A stretch of 64,000 nt of DNA. Source: Alphaproteobacteria bacterium. Lineage in GTDB: Bacteria; Pseudomonadota; Alphaproteobacteria; UBA828. The DNA is taken from the NCBI GenBank assembly GCA_963422645.2, contig CAXXVO010000014.1:128001-192000 (forward strand). Direction: 5' to 3'. The notes beneath the pieces were generated by a model. The model did not search any database. It had not been told where the DNA came from and saw nothing but the letters and a program-made list of their open reading frames with translations. Below are positions 16,943 to 43,520 of this stretch, piece by piece. Position 1 is the stretch's first letter; each line of letters opens with the position of its first letter. The translations under genes and the position numbers were made by a program.

Positions 16943-17852
16943 GGCGGGAGGCGGCAGAGCGCGTCCCCTTCGCGCTATCAAATTGAAGTCTTGGCCAGGT
17001 GGTGTTGCCGAACCACTATGACCAGCGTGCGCTCGCTCGAACTTGCTCCACACTCGGCGAAGGTGCGACCAAAAAAATGTTGATGGCGTTACCGTGCTCT
17101 GCAATAGTTGCAGTGTACGGCCAAGGGAATTCCGGACAGCGTCGGATTGGCAATGCTATCAACAGGTAACTGCCCAGGTTCTTGCTGTGAAAATTCTCTG
17201 GGATTCGGCACAACGCTACCCACGCGACGCCCGTGTGCTCCTCTGTGGTCGCCGGGTTTCACAGCTCACGATGCCCCTCTTGCGGACTGCGACCGGTAAG
17301 CTACCCCGATGTGGCCCGAAGTCCGCCCGCGCGACGGGCACCGATTTTCATTCTATGGGGTGGTCCAGCACGGCGTCGACCATGATCGTTTATGAGAATG
17401 GCTCCGCTGTTGGAGAACCCGTGCCAGGTGAGCTTACGCGCACTTGACGGTGGCGATGAGCCGATCCGATGGGCTGGTCAGGGCTTCGATGATATTCCAG
17501 CCCTGCTTTCTGGCGGTGGTGATGACGCTGCGCAGGATGGCGAAGTTCTCGGCCCCCTGCGCGGACCGGAAGCCCCCGGAGATCTTCTGGCGCAGCTTCA
17601 TCATCCGAAGGTCGCGCTCGGCCTCGTTGTTCGTGAACCCGACCTCGAGGTCGATCAGGAACCGGAGCACCGCGCATTTGTGGTCGCGCAGCCTCAAGGC
17701 CAGATTGTGACCGATCCTTCGCTTCCGGCGCTTCTTCCTCTTGCCAGGCGAGAACGGTGGTTGGCTCTCGTGAAAGGCCAGCGCATCGGCGATGATCTCG
17801 TCGTATCGGCGCTCGATCAGCGCCACAAGCCTCGCCGGAACGGCGATATCCT

Positions 17853-20366: not shown

Positions 20367-22011
20367 TCCTTGTCCAGCGCGATGCGGGCGGCGCGATTGG
20401 CTCGGCGCAGGAGCTGCTGCATCCGCCGGGCCCAAGCCTCCCCTTCGATGTCCACCAGCGCCTGCAACTCCCGCAGGTGATGGGCGTTGCACAGGCCGTG
20501 CTCCACCCCTTCCATCGCGAAGTACGGCTTCCAGTGATCGTGCACGACGATGCCGGAGACACCCGAGAGCAGGGCGCCGCGCTTGCCGCTGACCCGGTAC
20601 GCCGCCAGCAGCGGCGTGCAGATCACATGAAGCCACTGCGTCTGACCGCCGATCCGCAAGCCGGTCTCGTCCATGTGTTTCACCCGCGCCGTGCCCGCCG
20701 CCAGATCCTGTATGTGCAAGGCCGCGTCCCGCAGCCGCTCGGCCGCCCTCTCGCTCATCGTCGCCAACGTCGCAGCCGTCACCGGCGCGCCGAAGAGCTC
20801 GGCCATCACCTGCGACAGCCGATCCTCCGGCAGGAAGTGAGCGTGCTGAAGGTAGACCGCCACCCCGGCAATGCGCGGGCCGTACTGCACCGGCGCCGAC
20901 ACCCCGTCGGGGAACGCCGCCCGGGTCACCGTCCCGCAATGCCCGCAGCACTTGGCATGCGCCCGGTGCTCGGTCACCTCCAGGGGGCTCGGCTCGGGCA
21001 GATCGAACACCTGGCGGGCGACGGGCGTTCCCGCCCTGGCCGCGTCCGAAAGCGGCGAACCGCATCCCTTGCAGGAAGCCGGGACGTGATCCTTCACCCG
21101 ATCCGGGTGATCGGCGCGGCGCAGCGTCTTGCCCTTGTGGCCGGGCTGGCCACCGGGCTTGCGGCCCGATTTGCCGCGCAGGCTTCGGGTTCGCCGCTTC
21201 GAATTCGGCTTCCTCAGCCCATCGCTCGAAGGCGGCTTGCCGCTGTTGCCGCTGTTGAGGCCGAGACGGCGCTCCAACTCCTCGATGCGCTCGACGAGAC
21301 GCGCGACTTGCTCTTCCAGCCGCGCGTTCTGCTGCCGAAGCCAGGCATTTTCCTCCCGAAGCCGGGCGTTCTCCTCCTCCAGGCGGGCGATCTTCTGCGC
21401 GGGCGTTTCGGGCGCTGCTCCCGTCGAAGGGCCGCGCGGCGACTCGGGATTGCTCATGTCGTTGTTGAGTCATTTCCCGAAATTCCCGTCAAGCCCTTTC
21501 CACCAACTCCGAACGAGAAACGCCTCAATCCACTGGCCCAAAATGACAAATCAGACGACCTGGGCAGTTACATCAACAGAGCGTTTCCGGGTTTCCATCT
21601 GTTGTGGAAATTTGTGGAAATGCTTCAGACAGCGGGAGGCAGTCATGCAGACAAAAAATTTGGCTAGAGGCGTACTTTTCGCGCTTACTATTTTGTGTTT
21701 GCCGATTGCGGGCGCCTTTGCCGAAGGCGAGCTGGACGGCACGTGGAAAGCGCCTCCGATCGGCACCAAGGCCGCATACAATTATGGTGCGAATTGGGAA
21801 GTCGTCGCAGTCAAGAGTGACAGAGTATTTGTCATAGGTGACCCCGGTAACAAAATACAGAACGTCTCTTGGCATAAGTATAAGGGGATAATCGACAGCA
21901 TAAATGATGAAGGATGGAAGAGATCGATCAATGAGGCAGCGATTGATAAACTTTTCCCACTCAAGGTGGGAATGAACCGCCCCGGCTTTCCCGGAGGCAG
22001 TTTGGTTTGAG

Positions 22012-23240: not shown

Positions 23241-23782
23241 AACGGCTCCTCCTTCTCACAAGATGGAGCCTCCGGGAAAGCCGGAGCGGTTCAGAAACAA
23301 AACGACTGTGTCTGCTCCCTCAGGGGATTGGGATCTTAGGGTCACATACAAGGTCACTGGAATCAAACAAATCGAGACTCTCGCCGGGGTGAGGACAGTA
23401 TATCGCATTGCATTCTTGGAAAGGGGAGACGATAATCACAGAGCAAAGGGCTTCGGATATTTCGATCCAGAGTTGGGAATTTGGCATCGCGGAATCTACA
23501 CATACCAAAACAACGATCCGTACAAATGGAAGCTAATTAGCCTGGAGCTCCCTGAGTAATCGAGAACAATCTCGACGCCAACGCCCAGGTTGGGTGCACT
23601 GACCGTCCACGTCCATTAAGGGAGCGGGTCCCGCACGGTTGCTCCCAAGAGGTAACTGCCCAGGTCGTCTGATTTGTCATTTTGGGCCAGTGGATTGGTA
23701 ACTACCCAGGTACCCCAATCCTGAGTTGAGGACGGTGATTATGGCGGCGGCCGCGGCCTGGTTCTGCCACCGCGATTGGTTC

Positions 23783-23841
23783 TTGACCTCATAGAGTTGC
23801 GGGACTATGGACTGCTCTCTCGCGTGACGGGAGCGGTCCAT
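23783..23841 (+). promoter_or_regulatory. Putative sigma70 promoter and RBS-sequestering hairpin of the B1 MTase-transposase operon
   Basis: TTGACC-17bp-TATGGA; ATGGACTGCTC (23807-23817) pairs with GAGCGGTCCAT (23831-23841); same layout in B2. Confidence 0.6.
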
Positions 23842-24505
23842 GGGGTATTTCGGCTCGAAGGCGACAGCAGGTCTGTGCCAAGCGCTGATTGCGCTGATGC
23901 CGCCGCACTCCGTCTACATCGAAAGCCACCTTGGGGGCGGGGCGCTGACGAAGCGCAAGCCGCCGGCCGTGCGTTCGATCGGCATCGACCGCGATGCGCA
24001 GGCGCTCGAGGCCTTCGTCTGCGACTACCCGGTCGATCTGGTTCACGGCTGTGCCCATGACTTCCTGGCCTCGTTCCCGTTCCTGGGCCCGGAGCTGGTT
24101 TACAGCGATCCGCCCTATCTGCACGCGACCCGCCGCTCGGCGCAGCGCTACCGCTTCGAGTACGAGGAGGCCGGCCACGTCGCGCTTCTCGCGCTGCTCA
24201 AGGCTCTGCCCTGCCAGGTCATGATCTCGGGCCATCCGTCGGCGCTCTATGACGAGGTGCTGGCGGGATGGCGCCGGCTGGCGCTGCAGGTCACGACCCA
24301 GGGTCTGGTGCGAACCGAGGTCGTCTGGTTCAACTACGCCCCCGACCGGATGCATTGGGCCAGCCACGCAGGCCGGAACTTCACCGACCGCCAGCGCATC
24401 AAGCGCAAGGCAGCCAACTGGGGCCGGCGCTACCAGGCCTTGCCGCCGGGCGAACGCCTCGCCGTGCTCGCCGCCATGATGGCCGTCGAGGCCGAAGACA
24501 CGTGA
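23840..24505 (+). CDS. Compact Dam-like (D12-class) N6-adenine DNA methyltransferase
   Basis: YFGSK (motif X), YIESHLGGGA (motif I), GIDRD, LVYSDPPY (motif IV), VMISG, RTEVVW. Confidence 0.85.
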   Translation: MGYFGSKATAGLCQALIALMPPHSVYIESHLGGGALTKRKPPAVRSIGIDRDAQALEAFVCDYPVDLVHGCAHDFLASFPFLGPELVYSDPPYLHATRRSAQRYRFEYEEAGHVALLALLKALPCQVMISGHPSALYDEVLAGWRRLALQVTTQGLVRTEVVWFNYAPDRMHWASHAGRNFTDRQRIKRKAANWGRRYQALPPGERLAVLAAMMAVEAEDT

Positions 24506-26040
24506 CGGTGTCGCACTGGCACGAAGACCTCGCCGCCCGTAACGAGGCCTTCTGCTGCCTGAAGGAGCTTCTCGAGCCATCATCCCTCGCAACCACTGTC
24601 GTCGTTGCCGTCCGGGAATGGGGGCAGGGGCTGCTGCGATCAGCCACCGCGCTCGCCCGGGAAAATGCCGCACTCGAGCAGGAGAACGCGGCCCTGCGCG
24701 AGCGCATCGCCGAACTCGAGCGCAGCGCGGCCCTCAACAGCACCACAAGCAGCAAGCCCCCCGCCAGCGACGGGCTCAAGAAGAAAAGCGGAGCCCAGAG
24801 GCGCACCCAAAGCCAGCGCGGAAAGTCCGGCGGGCCCAGTGGCGGCCAGCCCGGCCACAAGGGAACCACCCTCGCGCGGAGCGACAGCCCGGACCGTGTC
24901 GTCGATCACCACCCCTCCACCTGTTCCGGCTGTGGCGTCGAGCTCTCGGACGCCGACCGGCAAGGCGCGCCCGCCTGTCGGCAGGTCTTCGACGTACCCG
25001 AGCCGCAGCCTCTCGAGGTCACCGAACACCGCGCCCATCGCTGCCTCTGCGGCGCATGCGGCACGCTGACACGAGCCGCCTTCCCGCCGGGCGTCACCGC
25101 CCCGGTCCAGTACGGCCCTCGCATCACCGCTTGGGTGAGTTACCTGCTGTACGCCCAGTTCGTGCCCGAGAAGCGTCTGGCCGAACTCATGAGCGACATC
25201 TTCGCGGTGTCCATCTCCACTGCCACGATCGCCGCCATGGGCCGGCGCACAGCGCAGCGCTTCGAGGGCTTCCTCGACCATGTCGCCGATCTGATCCGCA
25301 CGCAGGCGCCGGTCAAGCACCTCGACGAGACCGGCCTGCGTATCGCCGCCCGTACCCGCTGGCTCCATGTGCTGTGCACCCCGTTGCTCACCGTCCTGCG
25401 CATCGGCGAGGGACGCGGCGATGTCGAAAAGAACCTGAAAGGCATCCTCGTCCACGACGACTTCGCCCCCTACTTCACCATCAAGGGCGTCCGCCACGGC
25501 GCCTGCAACGCACATCACCTGCGCGAACTCCAGGCCCTGATCGACATCGAGAAGGAGGAATGGGCGGCGAGCATGCACCGCCTGCTTCAGCGCGCGCGCA
25601 GGGCCGCCCGCTTCGCCCGTGAGAAAGACCGTCAAGTCCCCGCCTCCCTGGTGGCCCGCATCTCAAGGGCATGGGACCGTATCCTCGAAGAAGCCATCGC
25701 CTTCCATGAGGCCCAACCGCCGCTCCAGATCGCAAAGCGAGGGCGAAAGAAACGCCGCATCGGCCACAACCTCGCGCGCCGCCTTCAAAAGCATAAGGAG
25801 GGCTGCCTGCGCTTCCTCACCGACATGCGCACGCCGTTCACGAATAACGAGGCGGAGCGTGACATCCGTATGAACAAAGTGCATGAGAAGATCTCAGGCG
25901 GCTTCCGCTCCCTGCAAGGCGCCTGCAACTTCGCCGGAATGCGCAGCGTCATCGTCACCGCTCGAAAGCAAGGCTGGAACATCCTGCAAATCCTGGCGCA
26001 CCCGGAACCGATGCAGCTGATCCCTATACTGCGCTCCTGA
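24502..26040 (+). CDS. IS66-family transposase (type B1, apparently intact, about 512 aa)
   Basis: GTG start overlaps the MTase TGA (GTGA); SSKPPASD, zinc finger, DETG, CNAHHLREL, TNNEAERD. Confidence 0.9.
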   Translation: MTVSHWHEDLAARNEAFCCLKELLEPSSLATTVVVAVREWGQGLLRSATALARENAALEQENAALRERIAELERSAALNSTTSSKPPASDGLKKKSGAQRRTQSQRGKSGGPSGGQPGHKGTTLARSDSPDRVVDHHPSTCSGCGVELSDADRQGAPACRQVFDVPEPQPLEVTEHRAHRCLCGACGTLTRAAFPPGVTAPVQYGPRITAWVSYLLYAQFVPEKRLAELMSDIFAVSISTATIAAMGRRTAQRFEGFLDHVADLIRTQAPVKHLDETGLRIAARTRWLHVLCTPLLTVLRIGEGRGDVEKNLKGILVHDDFAPYFTIKGVRHGACNAHHLRELQALIDIEKEEWAASMHRLLQRARRAARFAREKDRQVPASLVARISRAWDRILEEAIAFHEAQPPLQIAKRGRKKRRIGHNLARRLQKHKEGCLRFLTDMRTPFTNNEAERDIRMNKVHEKISGGFRSLQGACNFAGMRSVIVTARKQGWNILQILAHPEPMQLIPILRS

Positions 26041-26224
26041 ACTTCTCCGGCTCATCCTGAGTATCGCTGTCCTCTCATCTTGTTCGCGACGCGGCGTTCA
26101 TCATCCTCTCGCGCTCAAGAGAGTAGGCACCCCCGCGGCGTGGGGGCGTTGACGCAAAAGGAACTGGCTTGTTCCATAAGAGAGAGGGGGTACCTGGGCA
26201 GTTACGAAATGACTCAACAACGAC

Positions 26225-27731
26225 ATGAGCAATCCCGAGTCGCCGCGCGGCCCTTCGACGGGAGCAGCGCCCGAAACGCCCGCGCAGAAGATCGCCCGCC
26301 TGGAGGAGGAGAACGCCCGGCTTCGGGAGGAAAATGCCTGGCTTCGGCAGCAGAACGCGCGGCTGGAAGAGCAAGTCGCGCGTCTCGTCGAGCGCATCGA
26401 GGAGTTGGAGCGCCGTCTCGGCCTCAACAGCGGCAACAGCGGCAAGCCGCCTTCGAGCGATGGGCTGAGGAAGCCGAATTCGAAGCGGCGAACCCGAAGC
26501 CTGCGCGGCAAATCGGGCCGCAAGCCCGGTGGCCAGCCCGGCCACAAGGGCAAGACGCTGCGCCGCGCCGATCACCCGGATCGGGTGAAGGATCACGTCC
26601 CGGCTTCCTGCAAGGGATGCGGTTCGCCGCTTTCGGACGCGGCCAGGGCGGGAACGCCCGTCGCCCGCCAGGTGTTCGATCTGCCCGAGCCGAGCCCCCT
26701 GGAGGTGACCGAGCACCGGGCGCATGCCAAGTGCTGCGGGCATTGCGGGACGGTGACCCGGGCGGCGTTCCCCGACGGGGTGTCGGCGCCGGTGCAGTAC
26801 GGCCCGCGCATTGCCGGGGTGGCGGTCTACCTTCAGCACGCTCACTTCCTGCCGGAGGATCGGCTGTCGCAGGTGATGGCCGAGCTCTTCGGCGCGCCGG
26901 TGACGGCTGCGACGTTGGCGACGATGAGCGAGAGGGCGGCCGAGCGGCTTGCGGGACGCGGCCTTGCACATACAGGACCTGGCGGCGGGCACGGCGCGGG
27001 TGAAACACATGGACGAGACCGGCTTGCGGATCGGCGGTCAGACGCAGTGGCTTCATGTGATCTGCACGCCGCTGCTGGCGGCGTACCGGGTCAGCGGCAA
27101 GCGCGGCGCCCTGCTCTCGGGTGTCTCCGGCATCGTCGTGCACGATCACTGGAAGCCGTACTTCGCGATGGAAGGGGTGGAGCACGGCCTGTGCAACGCC
27201 CATCACCTGCGGGAGTTGCAGGCGCTGGTGGACATCGAAGGGGAGGCTTGGGCCCGGCGGATGCAGCAGCTCCTGCGCCGAGCCAATCGCGCCGCCCGCA
27301 TCGCGCTGGACAAGGATATCGCCGTTCCGGCGAGGCTTGTGGCGCTGATCGAGCGCCGATACGACGAGATCATCGCCGATGCGCTGGCCTTTCACGAGAG
27401 CCAACCACCGTTCTCGCCTGGCAAGAGGAAGAAGCGCCGGAAGCGAAGGATCGGTCACAATCTGGCCTTGAGGCTGCGCGACCACAAATGCGCGGTGCTC
27501 CGGTTCCTGATCGACCTCGAGGTCGGGTTCACGAACAACGAGGCCGAGCGCGACCTTCGGATGATGAAGCTGCGCCAGAAGATCTCCGGGGGCTTCCGGT
27601 CCGCGCAGGGGGCCGAGAACTTCGCCATCCTGCGCAGCGTCATCACCACCGCCAGAAAGCAGGGCTGGAATATCATCGAAGCCCTGACCAGCCCATCGGA
27701 TCGGCTCATCGCCACCGTCAAGTGCGCGTAA
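26225..27731 (+). pseudogene. IS66 type A transposase with a 1-nt insertion near 26949 (real or sequencing error)
   Basis: GAGCGGCTTGCGG here vs GAGCGGCTGCGG in copy 1; otherwise near-identical. Confidence 0.85.
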
Positions 27732-28128
27732 GCTCACCTGGCACGGGTTCTCCAACAGCGGAGCCATTCTCATAAACGATCATGGTCGACGCCGTGCTGG
27801 ACCACCCCATAGAATGAAAATCGGTGCCCGTCGCGCGGGCGGACTTCGGGCCACATCGGGGTAGCTTACCGGTCGCAGTCCGCAAGAGGGGCATCGTGAG
27901 CTGTGAAACCCGGCGACCATAGAGGAGCACACGGGCGTCGCGTGGGTAGCGTTGTGCCGAATCCCAGAGAATTTTCACAGCAAGAACCTGGGCAGTTACC
28001 CCAAGAGTTTCTGGACGCTGCGCTAAGCGTTGCTGTGTGGGGCACGCTGACATACGCTTGCCGGCCCGGCTGCCGTCTGGTCCGACCATTGCGGCGGCTT
28101 GCCCGCCCTCGAACATTGGAGACGCAGC

Positions 28129-37987: not shown

Positions 37988-38871
37988 TTGGCAATTCGTC
38001 GCAGGAGACGATGACCTGACCCGAGCAAGAATTTCTGCCCGATTTCTGGGCCGCAGGCGCACAAAACAAAGTCATAATTGTCTGTCCGGCGAATCCGTGT
38101 TTCAAGCTCCCAAATTGACGGGAGCCCAACAATGATTCGCCCGCGCCTATACCGGTCTCTGTGTTTGCCGGTTCTTCGACTTTCGGGACACGTGTTCCGC
38201 GTCGCGGTTCCTCTCTGTCTCGTCATCCCGATTCTGGCCGCTTGCCATATATTTGTGGACGATGTGGAAGAGGAAGAGCAGGAGCCCTGCGTCCAAACTC
38301 ATGACCAGGGCTGCCTTTCCGAACCCGAGCTAGAAGCCTTGGTGGAGGAAATCGCAGGCGAATACGCGGAGCCGTCGAGCTTCCAGAACCAGTGGGGCCT
38401 GGCGGCGATCAATGCCGACCAGGCTTACGCGAACTTGGAGCTGGAATTCGGTCCCGACGTGGCACCCGGCGAAGGCGTTACCGTGGGCGTGCTGGATACG
38501 GGGATCGACAATGCCCATCCCCAGTTTCGGAACAAGACCGTCCCTGAGAGGTTTCTTGCGGGTGCGACCGGCGATGACGGAAGCGAACTTTCTCACGGCA
38601 CCGCGGTGGCAAGCATTATCGCCGGAGAGGATATTCCCGGTTTCCCGTACGACGCGCATGGCGTGGCCTGGGGTGCCGATCTCGTCGTCTTTGCCATTCC
38701 GCTGGGAGAAGCGCCCGAATTGTATGATCCGATCCAGATAAGCGAGTTGCCGGGAACCGCAGAGTACGTAACTGCCCAGGTCTGATTCTGCCGAGCACTC
38801 GGACGTGATGGATTGATGGTTCTGACCAGCCAGGGGTCAGGCTGAGCGCTTTCCCGGAGCAGCGCAGGATT

Positions 38872-40185
38872 TCAGAAGCGCAATACGGGGATCAGCTGGA
38901 TTGGATCGGGGTGCGCCAGGGTTTCGAGGACATTCCAGCGCTGTTTTCGAGCGGTGGCGATGACGGATCGCAGGTTTGCGAAGTCGCGGGCGCCTTGTAT
39001 CGAGCGGAAGCCGCCTGAGATTTTCTGGCGCAGCTTGCCCATTCGGAGGTCGCGGTCGTTCTTGTGGGCGAAGCGGGCGGCTCTGTTGGCACGGATGAGG
39101 AGCCGGTGCGTGCTCGTTGCCCAGTCTTCCTTCTCGATCTCGATGAGGGCTTGGAGCTCGCGCAGGTGATGGGCGTTGCAGGCCCCGTGGCGCACGCCCT
39201 CGAGAGCGAAGTAGGTGGCGTAGTCGTCATGGATGACGATGCCGTTGAGCTTCTCGTCGATGTGGCTGCGCCCGGTGGCGACGCGCAGGATGGTGAGCAA
39301 CGGGGTGCACAGCACATGGAGCCAATGGGTCCGGGCGGCGATGCGGATGCCGGTCTCGTCGAGGTGTTTGACTGGGGCTGCGGTGCGGATGATCTCCGCG
39401 AGGCGATCGAGGAAGCCCTCGAAGCGCCGGGCGGTGCGCCTTCCCATGGCGACGATGGTGGCTGTTGAGAGCTTGACCGCGAAGAGGTCGCTCATGACCT
39501 CGGCGACCCGCTTCTCGGGAATGAACTGAGCGTGCAGCAGGTAGGTCACCCACGCGGTGATGCGCGGCCCGTATTGGACCGGTGCGCTCACGCCGTTCGG
39601 GAAGACGGCTGTCGTCACGGTGCCGCAGGCAGCGCAGAGGCAACGATGGCCGCGATGTTCGGTGACCTCGAGGGGCTGCGGCTCGGGCACATCGAAGACC
39701 TGCCGGCAGACGGGGGCTCCGTGACGGTCAGCGTCCGACAGCGGCGCGCCGCAGCCCTCACAGGCGGACGGATCATGATCGACGACATGGTCGGGCGTCG
39801 CGGTCCGCTCCAGGGTAGTTCCCTTGTGGCCCGGCTGGCCGCCACTGGGCCTGTCGGACTTGCCGCGCTGGCTCCGGGTGCGCTTCTCCCGGTCACCGCT
39901 CTTCTTCTTCAGACCGTCGCTGGCCGGCGGCTTGGAGCTGGTGGTGCTGTCGAGCGCGGCGCTGCGCTCGAGTTCGGCGATCCGCTCGCGCAAGCGGGCG
40001 TTCTCCCGCTCCAGCGCGTCGTTCTCCTTGACCAGGGCCGCGCTCAGGCGCAGCAACCCCTGGCCCCATTCCCGAATGGCTTTGACGGCGGTCATTGCGA
40101 AGGATTGTGGGGTGAAAAGGTCCTGCAGGCACGCGAAGGCCTCGTCGTGGGCAGCGAGGTCCTCGTGCCAGCGCGACACTGTCAC
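38872..40185 (-). pseudogene. IS66 transposase B2 with an in-frame deletion of about 76 aa that removes the NNEAE motif
   Basis: Reads RFAHKNDR|DLRMGKLRQK where B1 has EKDRQVPAS...TNNEAERDIRM. Confidence 0.8.
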
Positions 40186-40850
40186 GAACCCTCGTCGGCC
40201 TCGACGGCCATGATCGCGGCCAGCACCGCCAGGCGTTCGCCCGCCGGCATGGCCTCGTAGCGCCGGCCCCAGTTGGCCGCCTTGCGCTTGATGCACTGGC
40301 GCTCGGTGAAGTTCCGGCCGGCGAAGCTCGCCCAGTGCACCCGGTCAGGCGCGAAGTTGAACCACACGACCTCGGTCCGCACCTGGGCCTGGGTCGTCAC
40401 CTGCAGCGCCAGCCGGCGCCAGCCCGCCAGCAGCTCGTCATAGAGCGCAGACGGGTGGCCCGAGACCATCACCTGGCAGGGCAGACCCTTGAGCAGTTCG
40501 AGGAGCGCGACGTGGTCGGCCTCCTCGTACTCGAAGCGGTAGCGCTGCGACGAACGCCGGGTCGCGTGCAGATAGGGCGGATCGCTGTAGACCAGCTCCG
40601 GGCCCAGAAACGGGAACGAGGCCAGGAAGGAATGGGCGCAGCCGTGCACCAACTCCACCGGGTAGTCGCAGCCAAAGGCCTCAAGCGCCCGCTCGTCGCG
40701 GTCGATCCCGATCGAGCGCATGGCCGCAGGCTTGCGCTTCATCAGCGCCCCGCCCCCAAGATGGCTCTCGATATAGACAGAGTGCGGCGGCATCAGCGCA
40801 ATCAGCGCCTGGCTCAGACCGGTCGTCGCCTTCGACCCGAAATACCCCAC
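40182..40850 (-). CDS. Compact Dam-like N6-adenine DNA methyltransferase (homolog of 23840-24505)
   Basis: YFGSK, YIESHLGGGA, DPPY; intact 222 aa; GTGA overlap with the transposase. Confidence 0.85.
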   Translation of the reverse strand: MGYFGSKATTGLSQALIALMPPHSVYIESHLGGGALMKRKPAAMRSIGIDRDERALEAFGCDYPVELVHGCAHSFLASFPFLGPELVYSDPPYLHATRRSSQRYRFEYEEADHVALLELLKGLPCQVMVSGHPSALYDELLAGWRRLALQVTTQAQVRTEVVWFNFAPDRVHWASFAGRNFTERQCIKRKAANWGRRYEAMPAGERLAVLAAIMAVEADEGS

Positions 40851-40852
40851 CG

Positions 40853-40907
40853 GCTGCTCCTCTCATGCGAGAGTGCAACCCATAGGCGAGAGAACCTATA
40901 CAGTCAA
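40853..40907 (-). promoter_or_regulatory. Putative sigma70 promoter and RBS hairpin of the B2 operon
   Basis: TTGACT(40907-40902)-17bp-TATGGG(40884-40879); GGTTGC-A-CTCTC-GCAT-GAGAG-GA-GCAGCC hairpin covering GGAG. Confidence 0.6.
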
Positions 40908-43520
40908 GCGGGGATCAACGACGCGCCGACGGCGAAACGGCACCGACGGCAAGCAACATCAGCACGCACTCAGAACTGGCGGCGGGGTACCTGGGTAGTT
41001 ACCAGAGTACTTTGCCGACAGACTCGACGAGATACTCGGTTGGCGGTTCGGCTCCCGAAGCGTCGATTTGCTGAACTTGAGCCTCGGCGTCTCGGGAATC
41101 ATCGAGAATTACAGTGAAGAGGTACTTCACGAACCGTTTGCGCGGATGATCGCCTCAATTCTTCAGGAAAGCTCCGAAGATCAGACTTCCTGACCTCGTG
41201 ATGCTGGCTGTTCTGGGCAGCGTGCCGGGAACTCCTTGAATTCTGATACATTTCGGTTGTTTCAGGCGGTTTTTCGCTGGGTGTCGCGCCCGAGGTCTGA
41301 TATTATAATTTGATACCAATTGCACGGGGTCTCAACCATGCCCAGTACCCTCCCAATGTGCCCTCCAGAGGCGGTCTCGATCGGCAACAGCTGCTTCGCC
41401 GTCCTGATCTCGGACGACACCTTCACCTACTTTTCCAACCTCATTCCCTTTGACAGCCACGCCGCCGATGACCGCACGGCCATGCTCTTGCGGATCGGCC
41501 GCCTCGCGGCGATCAGCGCGGTCTCGCCGCAGGAACTGGCTGACGCTTTCGCTGTCTCGCGCGCGACGGTGCAGCGCGCACGACGGCGCTACCTGGCCGA
41601 GGGCGAAGCGGGGTTCATGAAGCCCCGGCGCGGTCGCGGGCCGTCGGTGTTCACTCCGGAGTTGGCGGAGAAGGCGACGGCGTTGCTGGCATCGGGCCTG
41701 AGCGGCTCTGCGGCGGCCCGGGTTCTCGGCGTGTCAGCGCCATCGGTCAACAAGTGGCGCCGTCAGGGACTGATCGGCAACACGGAGGCGGATGGGGAGC
41801 CCGGACGCTCAGCGCTGGCTGCGCCGCCTGACGCGGGTGCGGCTCCTGAAGGCCGTGTCGATGAAGAGAGTACCGGTGCCCCGGGGCCGGAGACGGCGCC
41901 GGGGCTGGAAGCGCAGCCGCAAACGGATCGCAGCGCGCGCGATCGGCGGGACCGGCAGGCGCCGATGGGGCGTGCGACTTGCGATGTTCCGGCTCGGGTT
42001 CTGGCCAGTTGTGGACAGGCGGGGCCGGTCGAACCGCAGTTCGCCGCCGCCGCCCGCGGTGTCCGCTTCGGCGGCGTGCTCGCCGCCCTGCCGGCCCTGC
42101 TGAAGGAAGGTCTTCTCTCCGAGACCGGTCTCCTGCCATTGCTGCCGAAGGGCTATTACGGCTTGCCTACGATCCTGCTCTTCCTGGCCTTCATGACCTT
42201 GGCGCGGGTGCGCAACCCCGAGAGCCTGCGCTACCAGGCGCCGGGCGAATGGGGCGCCATTCTCGGCCTCGATCGCTGCCCCGAGGTCAAGACGCTGCGC
42301 CGCAAGATCGCTCTCATCGCCGACGACGAGGCCGGCGTGCGGGCGTGGCAGCTCGCCCTTGCCAGGCGCTGGCAAGGCCGACGAGCCGGAGCTCTGGGCG
42401 ACGCTGGCCATCGACGGGCACGTCAAGGTCTACTCCGGCCGCAAGGGGCGCTTGCCCAAGCACTTCGTCTCGCGCGAGAAGCTGTGCCTGCCGGCGAGCG
42501 CCAGCTACTGGATCAACGCTCTGGGCGGCAAGCCGCTGCTCTGTCTGCACAAGCCGCTGGACCCGAAGATGGTCGCGGCCATCGAAGCCGACGTGGTGCC
42601 GGCGCTGCAGGAGCTTGGGATCGTTGGCGCCGGGGCGCCGGACCTGACCGCCGAGCATCCCGGCCAGCCGGCGCTCACCCTGGTCTTCGACCGCGAGGGC
42701 TGGAGCCCGGATCTGTTCCGCCGGCTGGCGAGGCGCGGCGTCGCCTGCCTGACCTGGCACAAGAACTTCAGGGGCGAGGACTGGCCGGCCGAGGACTTCG
42801 GCGCGATGACCGTTCCCATTCACGGACCGGCGGCGGACGGCAGCGCCACCATGCGGCTGGCTGAGAAGCCGGTGACGTTGCCGAACGGCTTCAGGGTGCG
42901 CCAGATCCGCCGCCTGCTCGACAACGGCCGTCAGGTGCCGCTGATCACCACCGATCCGCACAAGCCGATGGCTGAGGTTGCGGGCGCCATGTTCTCGCGC
43001 TGGTCGCAGGAGAACTTCTTCAAGTACATGCGTGACGAGTTCAATCTCGACGCCCTGCCGACCCACGAGCTCGAGCCTCTCGATCCCGCCGCCATGGTCG
43101 TCAACCCGCTGCGGCGGGCCTATGACAAGGCAATCCATCGCCTCGACCGCCAGCTTGGCCGCCTGCGCAACCGCATCGCCGACACGGCCCGGAAGAAGCA
43201 GCCGACGGCGGAACTCAGGAGGGAAGTCAGGGACCTCCAGGATGTCCGCGACATCGTCAGGGCCAGCCGCAGGGAGACGCCCAAGCACTGCCGGGCCGGC
43301 GACCTCGACGAAGCCGAGCAGCTCGATGCCTTGCCCGCGCGCGAGCGCCTCCTCCTCGACGTCATCCGGATGATCGCCTACCGCGCCGAAACCCGCATGA
43401 TGCTTCCCGTCATTGTTGTTAAGCGTGGAAAAGTGACCCCCTATTGGGGGTGATCGGCGTCCAAAATTGACCCCCTTGGATTTGTGTCCATGAACACACC
43501 TCGTCGTTTGGACGGACGGG

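What the first reader, a model, noticed from the sequence alone, without database searches (positions are those of the whole stretch)
23698..26205. IS66-family element carrying its own DNA adenine methyltransferase coupled to the transposase
Seen: between GTAACT-type IRs lie only a 221-aa DPPY methyltransferase gene and an IS66 transposase gene, overlapping as GTGA. A diverged element at 38768-41002 has the same organisation and a perfect 8-bp TSD, so the pair moves as a unit and is not a chance neighbour. No restriction endonuclease is present. Established: canonical IS66 carries tnpA/tnpB accessory genes upstream of tnpC, ISBst12-type elements have none, and Dam methylation regulates IS10/IS50; passenger-carrying IS elements are known in general. 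Inference: a self-methylating IS in which the MTase occupies the accessory-gene slot, and may protect the element from restriction, regulate transposition or alter the host methylome. I cannot confirm novelty without a search.
Basis: partly seen in the sequence, partly recalled or inferred. Interest (0 to 1): 0.85.

Follow-up and report, generated by a model that had tools for sequence, protein, structure and literature searches.

The report
Insertion sequence carrying a mini-Dam regulator gene
This is a real, actively spreading jumping gene whose extra gene looks like a DNA methylase, but that gene, with its own promoter and palindromic binding site, recurs in two unrelated families of jumping genes and most likely acts as a self-regulating switch for the transposase.

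Summary
Element 23698-26205 has 19/20-matching GTAACT inverted repeats, a 221-aa DPPY gene and an IS66-family transposase joined by GTGA. The second copy has a perfect 8-bp duplication (CAGAGTAC). The host genome holds 36 full-length copies, 22 of them with perfect 8-bp duplications.

The protein is a Dam-fold "mini-Dam" that lacks the roughly 110-residue target-recognition domain. Its closest studied relative is plasmid Upf31 (47% identical). Upf31 gave no detectable methylation in print and represses its own promoter.

I found the gene travelling as a cassette. The cassette comprises TTGAC, the palindrome NTAG-N10-CTAN (97 of 101 unique upstream regions) and a hairpin pairing the ribosome-binding site. 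The cassette sits upstream of three transposase lineages: two deep IS66 lineages and IS701. It was next to a transposase, or the stump of one, in 159 of 160 sampled loci.

The two operator half-sites change together. Protein residue 181 tracks them: Phe with ATAG, His/Arg with GTAG/CTAC.

Best reading (0.55): a portable autoregulated promoter-plus-DNA-binding-protein cassette that drives transposase expression. Whether it also methylates DNA is open, because DPPY is invariant. I found no published description, and ISfinder could not be queried.

The parts
23698..23717 (+). Left inverted repeat of copy 1 (type A), on the side of the mini-Dam gene
   Evidence: Matches the right end at 19 of 20 positions. 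It is the boundary of 36 full-length genomic copies.
23783..23809 (+). Cassette promoter and operator: -35-like TTGAC (23783-23787), then the palindrome CATAG (23790-23794) - N10 - CTATG (23805-23809), which overlaps a -10-like TATGGA
   Evidence: Read directly and found as a pattern hit. TTGAC-N1-4-NTAG-N10-CTAN is present in 97 of 101 unique upstream regions, always with a 10-bp spacer. The same palindrome lies upstream of a plasmid homologue. Promoter activity is inferred, not shown.
23806..23842 (+). Predicted 5' leader hairpin that pairs the Shine-Dalgarno GGGAG (23829-23833) and the start codon
   Evidence: Minimum free energy -23.3 kcal/mol, z = -3.4 for this copy. In all 27 unique leaders folded, 6-10 of the 11 positions from -15 to -5 are paired, and the arm sequences differ between lineages. 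A joint RNAalifold run gave no consensus because the alignment failed.
23840..24505 (+). Mini-Dam (Upf31-like) gene, 221 aa. It has motif I (E28, G32, G34) and DPPY (90-93), lacks a target-recognition domain, and ends in two long helices (181-199 and 203-220)
24502..26040 (+). IS66-family transposase, 512 aa, GTG start overlapping the upstream stop codon (GTGA)
26186..26205 (-). Right inverted repeat of copy 1
38760..38767 (.). Target-site duplication CAGAGTAC, copy 2 (first copy)
38768..41002 (-). Copy 2 (type B, about 82% nucleotide identity to type A) with the same organisation. The transposase runs from about 38872 to 40185 and carries a 228-bp internal deletion. The mini-Dam gene is 40182-40850. 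The operator ATAG-N10-CTAT is at 40882-40899
41003..41010 (.). Target-site duplication CAGAGTAC, copy 2 (second copy)
26206..27999 (+). Body of the 'type C' IS66-family element, which has no mini-Dam gene and into which copy 1 is nested. Its 46-bp left end is at 23652-23697
   Evidence: IR hits at 23652 and 27999. Its transposase is 60% identical to that of type A. There are 92 genomic HSPs longer than 1500 bp.

Best explanation
The element is an active IS66-family insertion sequence of the tnpA/tnpB-less kind. It has acquired a portable expression cassette upstream of its transposase.

The cassette has three parts: (i) a sigma-70-like promoter whose spacer and -10 region are overlaid by the palindrome [A/G]TAG-N10-CTA[T/C]; (ii) a leader hairpin that pairs the ribosome-binding site; (iii) a 221-aa Dam-fold protein of the plasmid Upf31 family.

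I propose that the protein binds the palindrome as two symmetry-related subunits. Residue 181, at the head of the basic C-terminal helix, would help read the variable half-site base. Binding would repress the cassette's own promoter. Because the transposase follows on the same strand, the protein would set transposase supply in cis and in trans. In this lineage the coupling is translational, through the GTGA overlap.

Shown here: the anatomy, mobility as one unit, conservation of the cassette and its operator across IS families, and operator/protein covariation. Inferred: DNA binding, repression, and co-transcription with the transposase. Open: whether the invariant DPPY pocket only flips the adenine of TAG or also methylates it.
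For: 1. The same cassette serves unrelated transposases. The upstream gene is 82% identical to ours in elements bounded by CTCGACTTTGT[A/T]CA repeats and 5-bp CTNAG-type duplications (CTTAG, CTCAG twice, CTAAG, CTGAG, plus TTCAG). Their transposase is IS701 family, scoring 309 and 313 bits against a cut-off of 170. The gene is 63-73% identical to ours in a deep IS66 lineage whose transposase is only 26-31% identical to ours.

2. Nucleotide homology between our IS66 element and the IS701-type element covers only element positions 86-811. That is 57 bp upstream of the ATG to just past the stop codon.

3. TTGAC-N1-4-NTAG-N10-CTAN is present in 97 of 101 unique upstream regions from 152 loci, always with a 10-bp spacer. 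In shuffles the looser NTAG-N10-11-CTAN occurred in 73 of 2020.

4. The half-site variants change together: A..T 67, G..C 14, and 16 other combinations. Fisher's test on the four A/G-by-T/C classes (mixed A..C 9, G..T 2) gives 6e-9, but relatedness inflates this.

5. Residue 181 is Phe in 73 of 74 proteins with an A..T operator (the other row is a gap). It is His or Arg in all 15 with G..C and in 6 of 8 with A..C. Every one of the 21 His/Arg proteins has a CTAC half-site. Parsimony needs 4 changes on a FastTree.

6. Stand-alone plasmid homologues carry the same architecture. One at 56% identity has CATAG-N10-CTATG. A relative at 44% identity has CATCG-N10-CGATG after TTGAC. So the site belongs to this protein family and not to any transposase.

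7. Upf31 (46.7% identical) represses its own promoter: XylE fell from 4.76 to 0.09 units. It gave no methylation signal (sections 9 and 11 of bioRxiv 10.1101/2024.02.05.579024).

8. The gene is under purifying selection (dN/dS 0.23), and the ORF is intact in 36 of 36 copies.
Against: 1. D90, P91 and P92 are invariant in 84 diverse family members. Y93, E28, G32, G34, G5 and K7 are nearly invariant. A pure repressor would not need a catalytic pocket.

2. No binding, transcription or expression data exist for this protein.

3. Upf31 is only 47% identical and its proposed operator (inverted CAGCATCG) differs.

4. Operator/residue covariation is confounded by shared ancestry. Only 4 inferred changes support it.

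5. A sibling IS without the cassette (type C, transposase 60% identical) has at least 92 long matches in the same genome, more than the roughly 75 cassette-bearing copies. The cassette is therefore neither required for spread nor an evident brake on it.

6. In the IS701-type and deep IS66 lineages the two genes are separated by 5-70 nt and do not overlap. Translational coupling is therefore not general.
Confidence: 0.55

Rival explanations
1. The gene is a working orphan N6-adenine DNA methyltransferase that modifies many sites in the host and element DNA. Its benefit would be protection from restriction after transfer, or a changed host methylome.
For: The fold and motifs are those of Dam. 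Foldseek's top hits are DpnM, EcoDam and T4Dam, with probability 1.0 and TM 0.5-0.56. The family profile hits DpnM at 1.5e-10 and EcoDam at 3.8e-6. DPPY and motif I are conserved. PHROGs places it in 'DNA methyltransferase' families (4.8e-17). Of the 196 plasmids with homologues, 134 are conjugative. In one plasmid the gene lies beside transfer genes, a setting where orphan methylases are common (recalled).
Against: The roughly 110 residues that form the Dam/DpnM DNA-recognition domain are missing: DpnM residues 75-183 align to only 19 residues here. Curated cut-offs are failed: PF02086 scores 12 bits against 22, and TIGR00571 scores 21 against 114.85. Upf31 gave no GATC methylation and no SMRT kinetic signal in a methylase-free E. 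coli. An IS that already resides in a host-methylated chromosome gains little from anti-restriction. This view also does not explain the conserved palindrome in the gene's own promoter.
Confidence: 0.15
2. This is a hybrid model of a self-encoded epigenetic switch. The protein methylates only the adenine of TAG in its own palindromic operator. Full methylation shuts the promoter. Passage of a replication fork leaves the site hemimethylated and gives a burst of transposase. This is the logic of Dam control of IS10, but the methylase is carried by the element, so it would work in any host.
For: The model reconciles the invariant catalytic motif with a rare 8-to-10-base composite site. Such a site would occur only a handful of times in E. 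coli and could escape SMRT motif calling (my estimate, not computed on a genome). TAG/CTA is the invariant core of both half-sites. The site overlaps the -10-like hexamer. Portability between IS families fits a host-independent control module.
Against: No methylation has been seen for any family member. No data here bear on methylation state. Repression by simple occupancy explains the Upf31 reporter result without catalysis.
Confidence: 0.2
3. The gene is a passive passenger. A plasmid gene was trapped between the ends and is merely carried along, with no role in transposition.
For: Insertion sequences with passenger genes are known in general (recalled). The cassette-less sibling IS spreads at least as well in the same genome.
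Against: The position and orientation are the same, upstream of and co-directional with the transposase, in three transposase lineages across at least 9 phyla. The start and stop codons overlap in the type A lineage. The gene is under purifying selection and intact in 36 of 36 copies. The IS-borne proteins form one well-supported clade, 100/98.
Confidence: 0.1

Closest known systems
Upf31 (upf31.0) of IncP-1beta plasmids such as pBP136
   Same: It is 46.7% identical over residues 1-206. It shares the DPPY and motif I columns and a C-terminal helical region. Its promoter has TTGAC followed by an inverted repeat. It is reported to repress its own promoter, and methylation was not detected.
   Different: It is a stand-alone plasmid backbone gene, not inside an IS. 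Its proposed operator is inverted CAGCATCG. It is predicted to act through KorB, which has no counterpart in the IS.
IS66 family, ISBst12-type (transposase-only) elements
   Same: The transposase model is matched above the cut-off and the domain set is DUF6444, zf-IS66 and DDE_Tnp_IS66. The ends start with GTAA and the duplication is 8 bp. There is no tnpA/tnpB. The nearest annotated plasmid transposases (46-48% identical) have no listed upstream gene.
   Different: It has a second, unrelated gene with its own promoter and operator upstream. The transposase starts roughly 30-40 residues earlier than its nearest annotated plasmid relative and than the type C sibling in this genome.
Canonical IS66 (tnpA-tnpB-tnpC)
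   Same: It is the same transposase family, with accessory coding capacity upstream of the transposase and overlapping start and stop codons (the features of canonical IS66 are recalled).
   Different: The accessory protein here is a Dam-fold protein. No TnpA-like or TnpB-like ORF is present.
Dam / DpnM / T4 Dam (D12-class N6-adenine DNA methyltransferases)
   Same: It shares the Rossmann-type core, the N-terminal G-x-K motif, motif I and DPPY.
   Different: The inserted DNA-recognition domain is missing. Two C-terminal helices are added. Identity is 13-15%. Activity has not been shown.
Dam control of IS10/IS50, and small upstream repressors such as IS1 InsA or IS911 OrfA (recalled)
   Same: The logic is the same: a site in the transposase promoter, or a small DNA-binding protein encoded upstream, keeps transposase low.
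   Different: Here the site is not in the terminal repeats. The regulator has a methyltransferase fold. The promoter, operator and regulator move between IS families as one module.
IS701 family
   Same: The sister elements carrying the cassette (L080-L086, L097, L098) match NF049999 above the cut-off and make 5-bp CTNAG-type duplications.
   Different: These are not in this window. They also carry a divergent 95-aa DUF3024-like ORF.

Membership tests
IS66 family | Transposase matches the curated IS66 model above its cut-off | tested here: met
   NF033517 scores 289.6 bits against a cut-off of 180. PF03050 has E = 5e-41.
IS66 family | Terminal inverted repeats of about 20 bp beginning GTAA (feature recalled) | tested here: met
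   GTAACT[A/G]CCCAGGTACCCC, 19 of 20 positions matching
IS66 family | 8-bp target-site duplication (feature recalled) | tested here: met
   22 of 36 full-length copies have a perfect 8-bp duplication. Copy 2 has CAGAGTAC.
Canonical IS66 (three-gene) | tnpA and tnpB upstream of tnpC | tested here: not met
   There are only two ORFs. The upstream one has no IS66 accessory domain.
ISBst12 group of IS66 | The transposase is the only gene | tested here: not met
   A conserved 221-aa gene precedes it in all 36 copies.
D12-class / Dam N6-adenine DNA methyltransferase | Match to PF02086 or TIGR00571 above the curated cut-off | tested here: not met
   PF02086 scores 12 bits against 22. TIGR00571 scores 21.1 bits against 114.85. 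A profile built from the family does reach DpnM at 1.5e-10.
D12-class / Dam N6-adenine DNA methyltransferase | AdoMet-binding motif I and catalytic DPPY | tested here: met
   D90, P91 and P92 are invariant. E28, G32, G34 and Y93 are conserved in at least 90% of 84 sequences.
D12-class / Dam N6-adenine DNA methyltransferase | Target-recognition domain between motif III and DPPY | tested here: not met
   DpnM residues 75-183 correspond to only 19 residues here. The model shows no such domain.
D12-class / Dam N6-adenine DNA methyltransferase | Transfers methyl to adenine N6 in DNA | not testable with these tools
   The only experimental test in the family (Upf31) was negative.
Upf31 family (plasmid Dam-fold autoregulators) | Full-length sequence similarity to Upf31 | tested here: met
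   46.7% identity over residues 1-206, E = 4e-52. Aligned.
Upf31 family (plasmid Dam-fold autoregulators) | Inverted repeat overlapping the gene's own promoter | tested here: met
   97 of 101 unique upstream regions have it. It is also present upstream of plasmid homologues.
Upf31 family (plasmid Dam-fold autoregulators) | Represses its own promoter | not testable with these tools
   Shown only for an R751/pBP136 hybrid Upf31.
Restriction-modification system | Cognate endonuclease gene adjacent | tested here: not met
   No third ORF lies within the inverted repeats. In 157 of 160 sampled loci the next gene is a transposase.

The most novel reading that the evidence does not exclude
A methyltransferase-fold protein together with its promoter-operator is a mobile control module. 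Unrelated transposons (IS66, IS701) and conjugative plasmids have each adopted it. It works by flipping, and perhaps methylating, one adenine in each half of its own operator. Each element would then carry a host-independent, copy-number-sensing and possibly replication-timed epigenetic brake on its own transposase.
Probability: 0.2. Interest if true: 0.8.

Novelty: new variant of a known kind. Interest (0 to 1): 0.6.

Why it matters
Insertion sequences are usually thought to regulate themselves with family-specific tricks. Here one small module (promoter, palindromic operator, leader hairpin and a Dam-fold protein) is shared by two unrelated IS families and by conjugative plasmids.

The module is abundant. 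There are 3705 clusters at E <= 1e-3.

If the protein is a repressor, thousands of genes annotated 'DNA adenine methylase' are mis-named, and methylome predictions that count them are wrong. If it methylates its own operator, it would be a self-contained epigenetic control of transposition.

The host genome, with about 75 cassette-bearing copies and about 90 cassette-less sibling copies, offers a natural comparison.

Tried and rejected
Homodimer prediction. I ran complex prediction with two copies of the protein. The result was no verdict (scores 0.23 and 0.15, mark 0.42), so I do not use it either way.

Joint RNA consensus of the leader. RNAalifold on 25 sequences gave no pairs because the lineages did not align. 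I replaced it with single-sequence folds.

IS630 association. In L076 a DDE_3 transposase lies downstream of the gene. However, L076 and L079 share only the gene plus about 130 bp upstream and 26 bp downstream, including the first codons of an IS66-type transposase. I rejected this as a nested insertion.

RNA evidence. No RNA holder was listed for the element.

Phylum survey. Only 2 of 400 other genomes sampled in the host's phylum had a match at E <= 1e-20. Both were distant, at 44-47% identity. This search therefore yielded no further IS-borne copies; the two distant matches gave loci L103 and L104, and L104 served as an outgroup and operator comparison.

Metagenome scan with an alignment. 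I repeated it with the single protein P0126.

Literature. Seven full-text searches found no paper describing an IS66 or IS701 element with this gene. Apart from the Upf31 preprint, I saw only titles and abstract starts. For that preprint I read the outline and sections 9, 11, 12 and 13. The Gourbeyre/Siguier/Chandler review of IS66, and the ISfinder and TnPedia entries, are not in the library, and I cite their content only from recall. ISfinder itself could not be queried, so prior listing there is not excluded. The supplements of the Upf31 preprint (SMRT output, reporter tables) were not seen.

Full report
**What is there**

Between 19/20-matching inverted repeats lie two genes. The repeats are GTAACTACCCAGGTACCCC at 23698 and its partner ending at 26205.
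- The first gene is a 221-aa ORF (23840-24505) with DPPY at residues 90-93.
- The second is a 512-aa transposase starting at GTG 24502. Its start overlaps the upstream stop as GTGA.
- The transposase is IS66 family: NF033517 scores 289.6 bits against a cut-off of 180, and it has DUF6444, zf-IS66 and DDE_Tnp_IS66.
- No tnpA, tnpB or endonuclease ORF is present.

The second copy (38768-41002, minus strand) has the same layout and a perfect CAGAGTAC duplication. Its transposase has lost 228 bp relative to at least 13 sibling copies.

Copy 1 has no duplication. It is nested in another IS66-type element ('type C'), whose 46-bp left end is at 23652-23697 and whose body is at 26206-27999.

**It is an active unit**

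The host genome (5.9 Mb, 23 contigs) gives 92 tblastn matches to the 221-aa protein. Of these, 51 are full-length at 97-100% identity, 24 are full-length at 85-87%, and 17 are fragments.

Thirty-six elements are full-length at 99.6% nucleotide identity or more. Twenty-two of the 36 have perfect 8-bp duplications. Several of the rest carry flanks that are swapped between copies, as expected after recombination between copies.

All 36 keep the 221-aa ORF, and 34 keep a 512-513-aa transposase. dN/dS for the small gene between the two subfamilies is 0.23, with dS 0.31.

**What the small protein is**

- It fails the curated Dam models: PF02086 scores 12 bits against 22, and TIGR00571 scores 21 against 114.85.
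- A profile of 84 relatives reaches DpnM (1.5e-10) and EcoDam (3.8e-6) in two blocks. The blocks skip DpnM residues 75-183, which form the DNA-recognition domain.
- The AlphaFold model is confident (pLDDT 92.4, pTM 0.87). It is a Rossmann-type core followed by two long C-terminal helices.
- Foldseek ranks DpnM, EcoDam and T4 Dam first, with TM 0.5-0.56 and 13-15% identity.
- D90, P91, P92, H23 and H113 are invariant in 84 diverse members. G5, K7, E28, G32, G34 and Y93 are nearly so.

It is therefore a 'mini-Dam': the catalytic and cofactor motifs are intact and the recognition domain is absent.

**Relatives and the one experiment in the family**

The family is large. There are 3705 clusters at E <= 1e-3 in the 90%-identity library. 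There are 5554 representatives in the 50%-identity library, 553 of them at E <= 1e-30.

In PLSDB, 196 plasmids carry homologues, all below 60% identity, and 134 of the plasmids are conjugative. These include 'upf31.0' of IncP-1 plasmids. On a Xanthomonas plasmid the gene stands alone beside transfer genes.

For Upf31 of pBP136 (46.7% identical over residues 1-206), Elg and colleagues report the following (bioRxiv 10.1101/2024.02.05.579024; I read the outline and sections 9, 11, 12 and 13):
- no GATC methylation;
- no SMRT kinetic signal in a methylase-free E. coli;
- strong repression of its own promoter;
- a proposed inverted-repeat operator;
- a C-terminal dimerisation region.

**The gene is almost always inside an IS, and not only IS66**

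Of 80 loci from species-representative genomes (69-95% identity; Alphaproteobacteria, Gammaproteobacteria, Tectimicrobiota, Chloroflexota, Binatia, Planctomycetota, Acidobacteriota, Bacillota and a CPR phylum):
- 62 are followed by our transposase type. One of these (L093) is only 26% identical, and its small gene clusters with the deep lineage.
- 8 are followed by a deep IS66 lineage whose transposase is 26-31% identical to ours.
- 8 are followed by an IS701-family transposase.
- 2 are followed by only the first codons of an IS66-type transposase.

The IS701-type units are multicopy. Three copies in one genome share 2781 bp at 99.8% identity. They have their own inverted repeats and CTNAG-type 5-bp duplications.

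A metagenome scan with a 60%-identical relative found at least 575 stretches. In 79 of the 80 loci kept, the deep IS66 transposase follows within a few to about 25 nt.

On the protein tree the IS-borne genes form one clade (100/98) apart from plasmid proteins. Its sub-clades match the three transposase types. The IS701 clade (96/91) is sister to ours.

Nucleotide homology between our element and the IS701-type element is confined to 57 bp upstream of the ATG through the stop codon. The unit that moved between IS families is therefore the gene plus its immediate upstream region.

**The upstream region is a conserved promoter-operator**

Every lineage has TTGAC followed by a palindrome. In the window these are TTGAC at 23783-23787 and CATAG-N10-CTATG at 23790-23809.
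- Across 152 loci, which give 101 unique upstream regions, 97 have TTGAC-N1-4-NTAG-N10-CTAN, and the spacer is always 10. The other four differ by one base.
- The variable half-site bases change together: A..T 67, G..C 14 and 16 other combinations. The test (Fisher 6e-9) uses the four A/G-by-T/C classes, in which the mixed pairs number 11. Shared ancestry inflates this figure.
- Protein residue 181 sits at the start of the basic helix 181-199. It is Phe in 73 of 74 A..T cases (the other row is a gap). It is His or Arg in all 15 G..C cases and in 6 of 8 A..C cases. Parsimony needs four changes.
- The same CATAG-N10-CTATG lies upstream of the 56%-identical stand-alone plasmid gene. A 44%-identical relative has CATCG-N10-CGATG after TTGAC.

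The site therefore belongs to this protein and not to any transposase.

Downstream of the operator, all 27 unique leaders fold into a hairpin that pairs the Shine-Dalgarno region, with different arm sequences in different lineages.

**Mechanism**

The best-supported reading is an autoregulated cassette. The protein would occupy the palindrome that overlaps its own promoter and so limit transcription of itself and of the transposase that follows. In this lineage the transposase is translationally coupled through the GTGA overlap.

What is shown is the anatomy, the mobility, the modular transfer and the operator-protein covariation. Binding, repression and co-transcription are inferred.

The invariant DPPY argues that the adenine pocket is used. 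Whether it only flips the TAG adenine or also methylates it cannot be decided here. A composite site this long would be rare in E. coli, so the negative SMRT result for Upf31 does not exclude site-restricted methylation (my reasoning).

**Evidence against a strong regulatory role**

A cassette-less sibling IS (type C, transposase 60% identical) has at least 92 long matches in the same genome. This exceeds the roughly 75 cassette-bearing copies.

**Comparison and novelty**

The element meets the IS66 tests: transposase model, GTAA ends and an 8-bp duplication. It is neither the canonical three-gene type nor the single-gene ISBst12 type. The nearest annotated plasmid transposases (46-48% identical) have no listed upstream gene.

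The accessory protein belongs with Upf31, not with working Dam enzymes.

Seven literature searches found no description of this organisation. ISfinder could not be queried. Given the abundance of these elements, some may be listed there.

I rate the finding a new variant of a known kind: an IS with an upstream regulator or accessory gene. The unusual points are the methyltransferase fold of the regulator and its transfer, with promoter and operator, between unrelated IS families and plasmids.

Noticed in passing
window 23652-23697 and 26206-27999: This is 'type C', an IS66-family element without the mini-Dam gene. Its transposase is 60% identical to type A but reads in two frames here (26225-~26950 and 26949-27731). 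There are 92 genomic matches longer than 1500 bp. Whether the frame change is programmed or a defect was not examined.
   Followed up: partly
window 23652-23697; genome flanks listed: Type A copies sit repeatedly in the left end of type C elements, at targets GATTTGTC, GGCGTTTC and GAAATGAC. One target (GAAATGAC) is used both in the window copy and in a copy on contig 9. This could be a preferred nested insertion site, or a composite that was itself duplicated.
   Followed up: no
own genome, e.g. contig 10: 125238-125348 / 127861 onward: Several type B copies are interrupted at the same position, about 106-111 bp from the left end and just upstream of the TTGAC/operator. In three of them the insert is about 2.5 kb, and the one I compared has no similarity to type A.
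   Followed up: partly
own genome, contig 9 near 534228 and contig 6 near 391794: Two type A copies carry reciprocally swapped 8-bp flanks (GAATACAT / GGAGAGTC). This is the signature of recombination between copies, or of an assembly join through the repeat.
   Followed up: no
L084:3475-3759 (minus strand); also L080, L083, L097: The IS701-type elements carrying the cassette also encode a divergent 95-aa ORF at their left end. It is 77% identical between the two sub-lineages and has a weak DUF3024 match (E = 3e-4, below cut-off). It is absent from the host genome of the window.
   Followed up: partly
window 38078-38785: The ORF cut by copy 2 reads like a subtilisin-type peptidase (my reading of its motifs in the translation). 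I did not check it against Pfam.
   Followed up: no
window 17166-17181 (+) and 21556-21571 (-): Two further IS66-type ends (GTAACTGCCCAGGT...) could bound another element or composite of about 4.4 kb. Its content was not examined.
   Followed up: no
element 23698-26205 in public runs: Near-identical sequence (at least half of the sampled words) is held by 9 runs under five coded organism labels, and smaller shares by 11 more runs; the 20 holders span 13 studies. One small-share holder is labelled as a sponge metagenome.
   Followed up: no
window 41320-42864: A 514-aa ORF lies next to copy 2. Its N-terminal part looks helix-turn-helix-like and its C-terminal part has low-complexity composition. 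It was not analysed.
   Followed up: no
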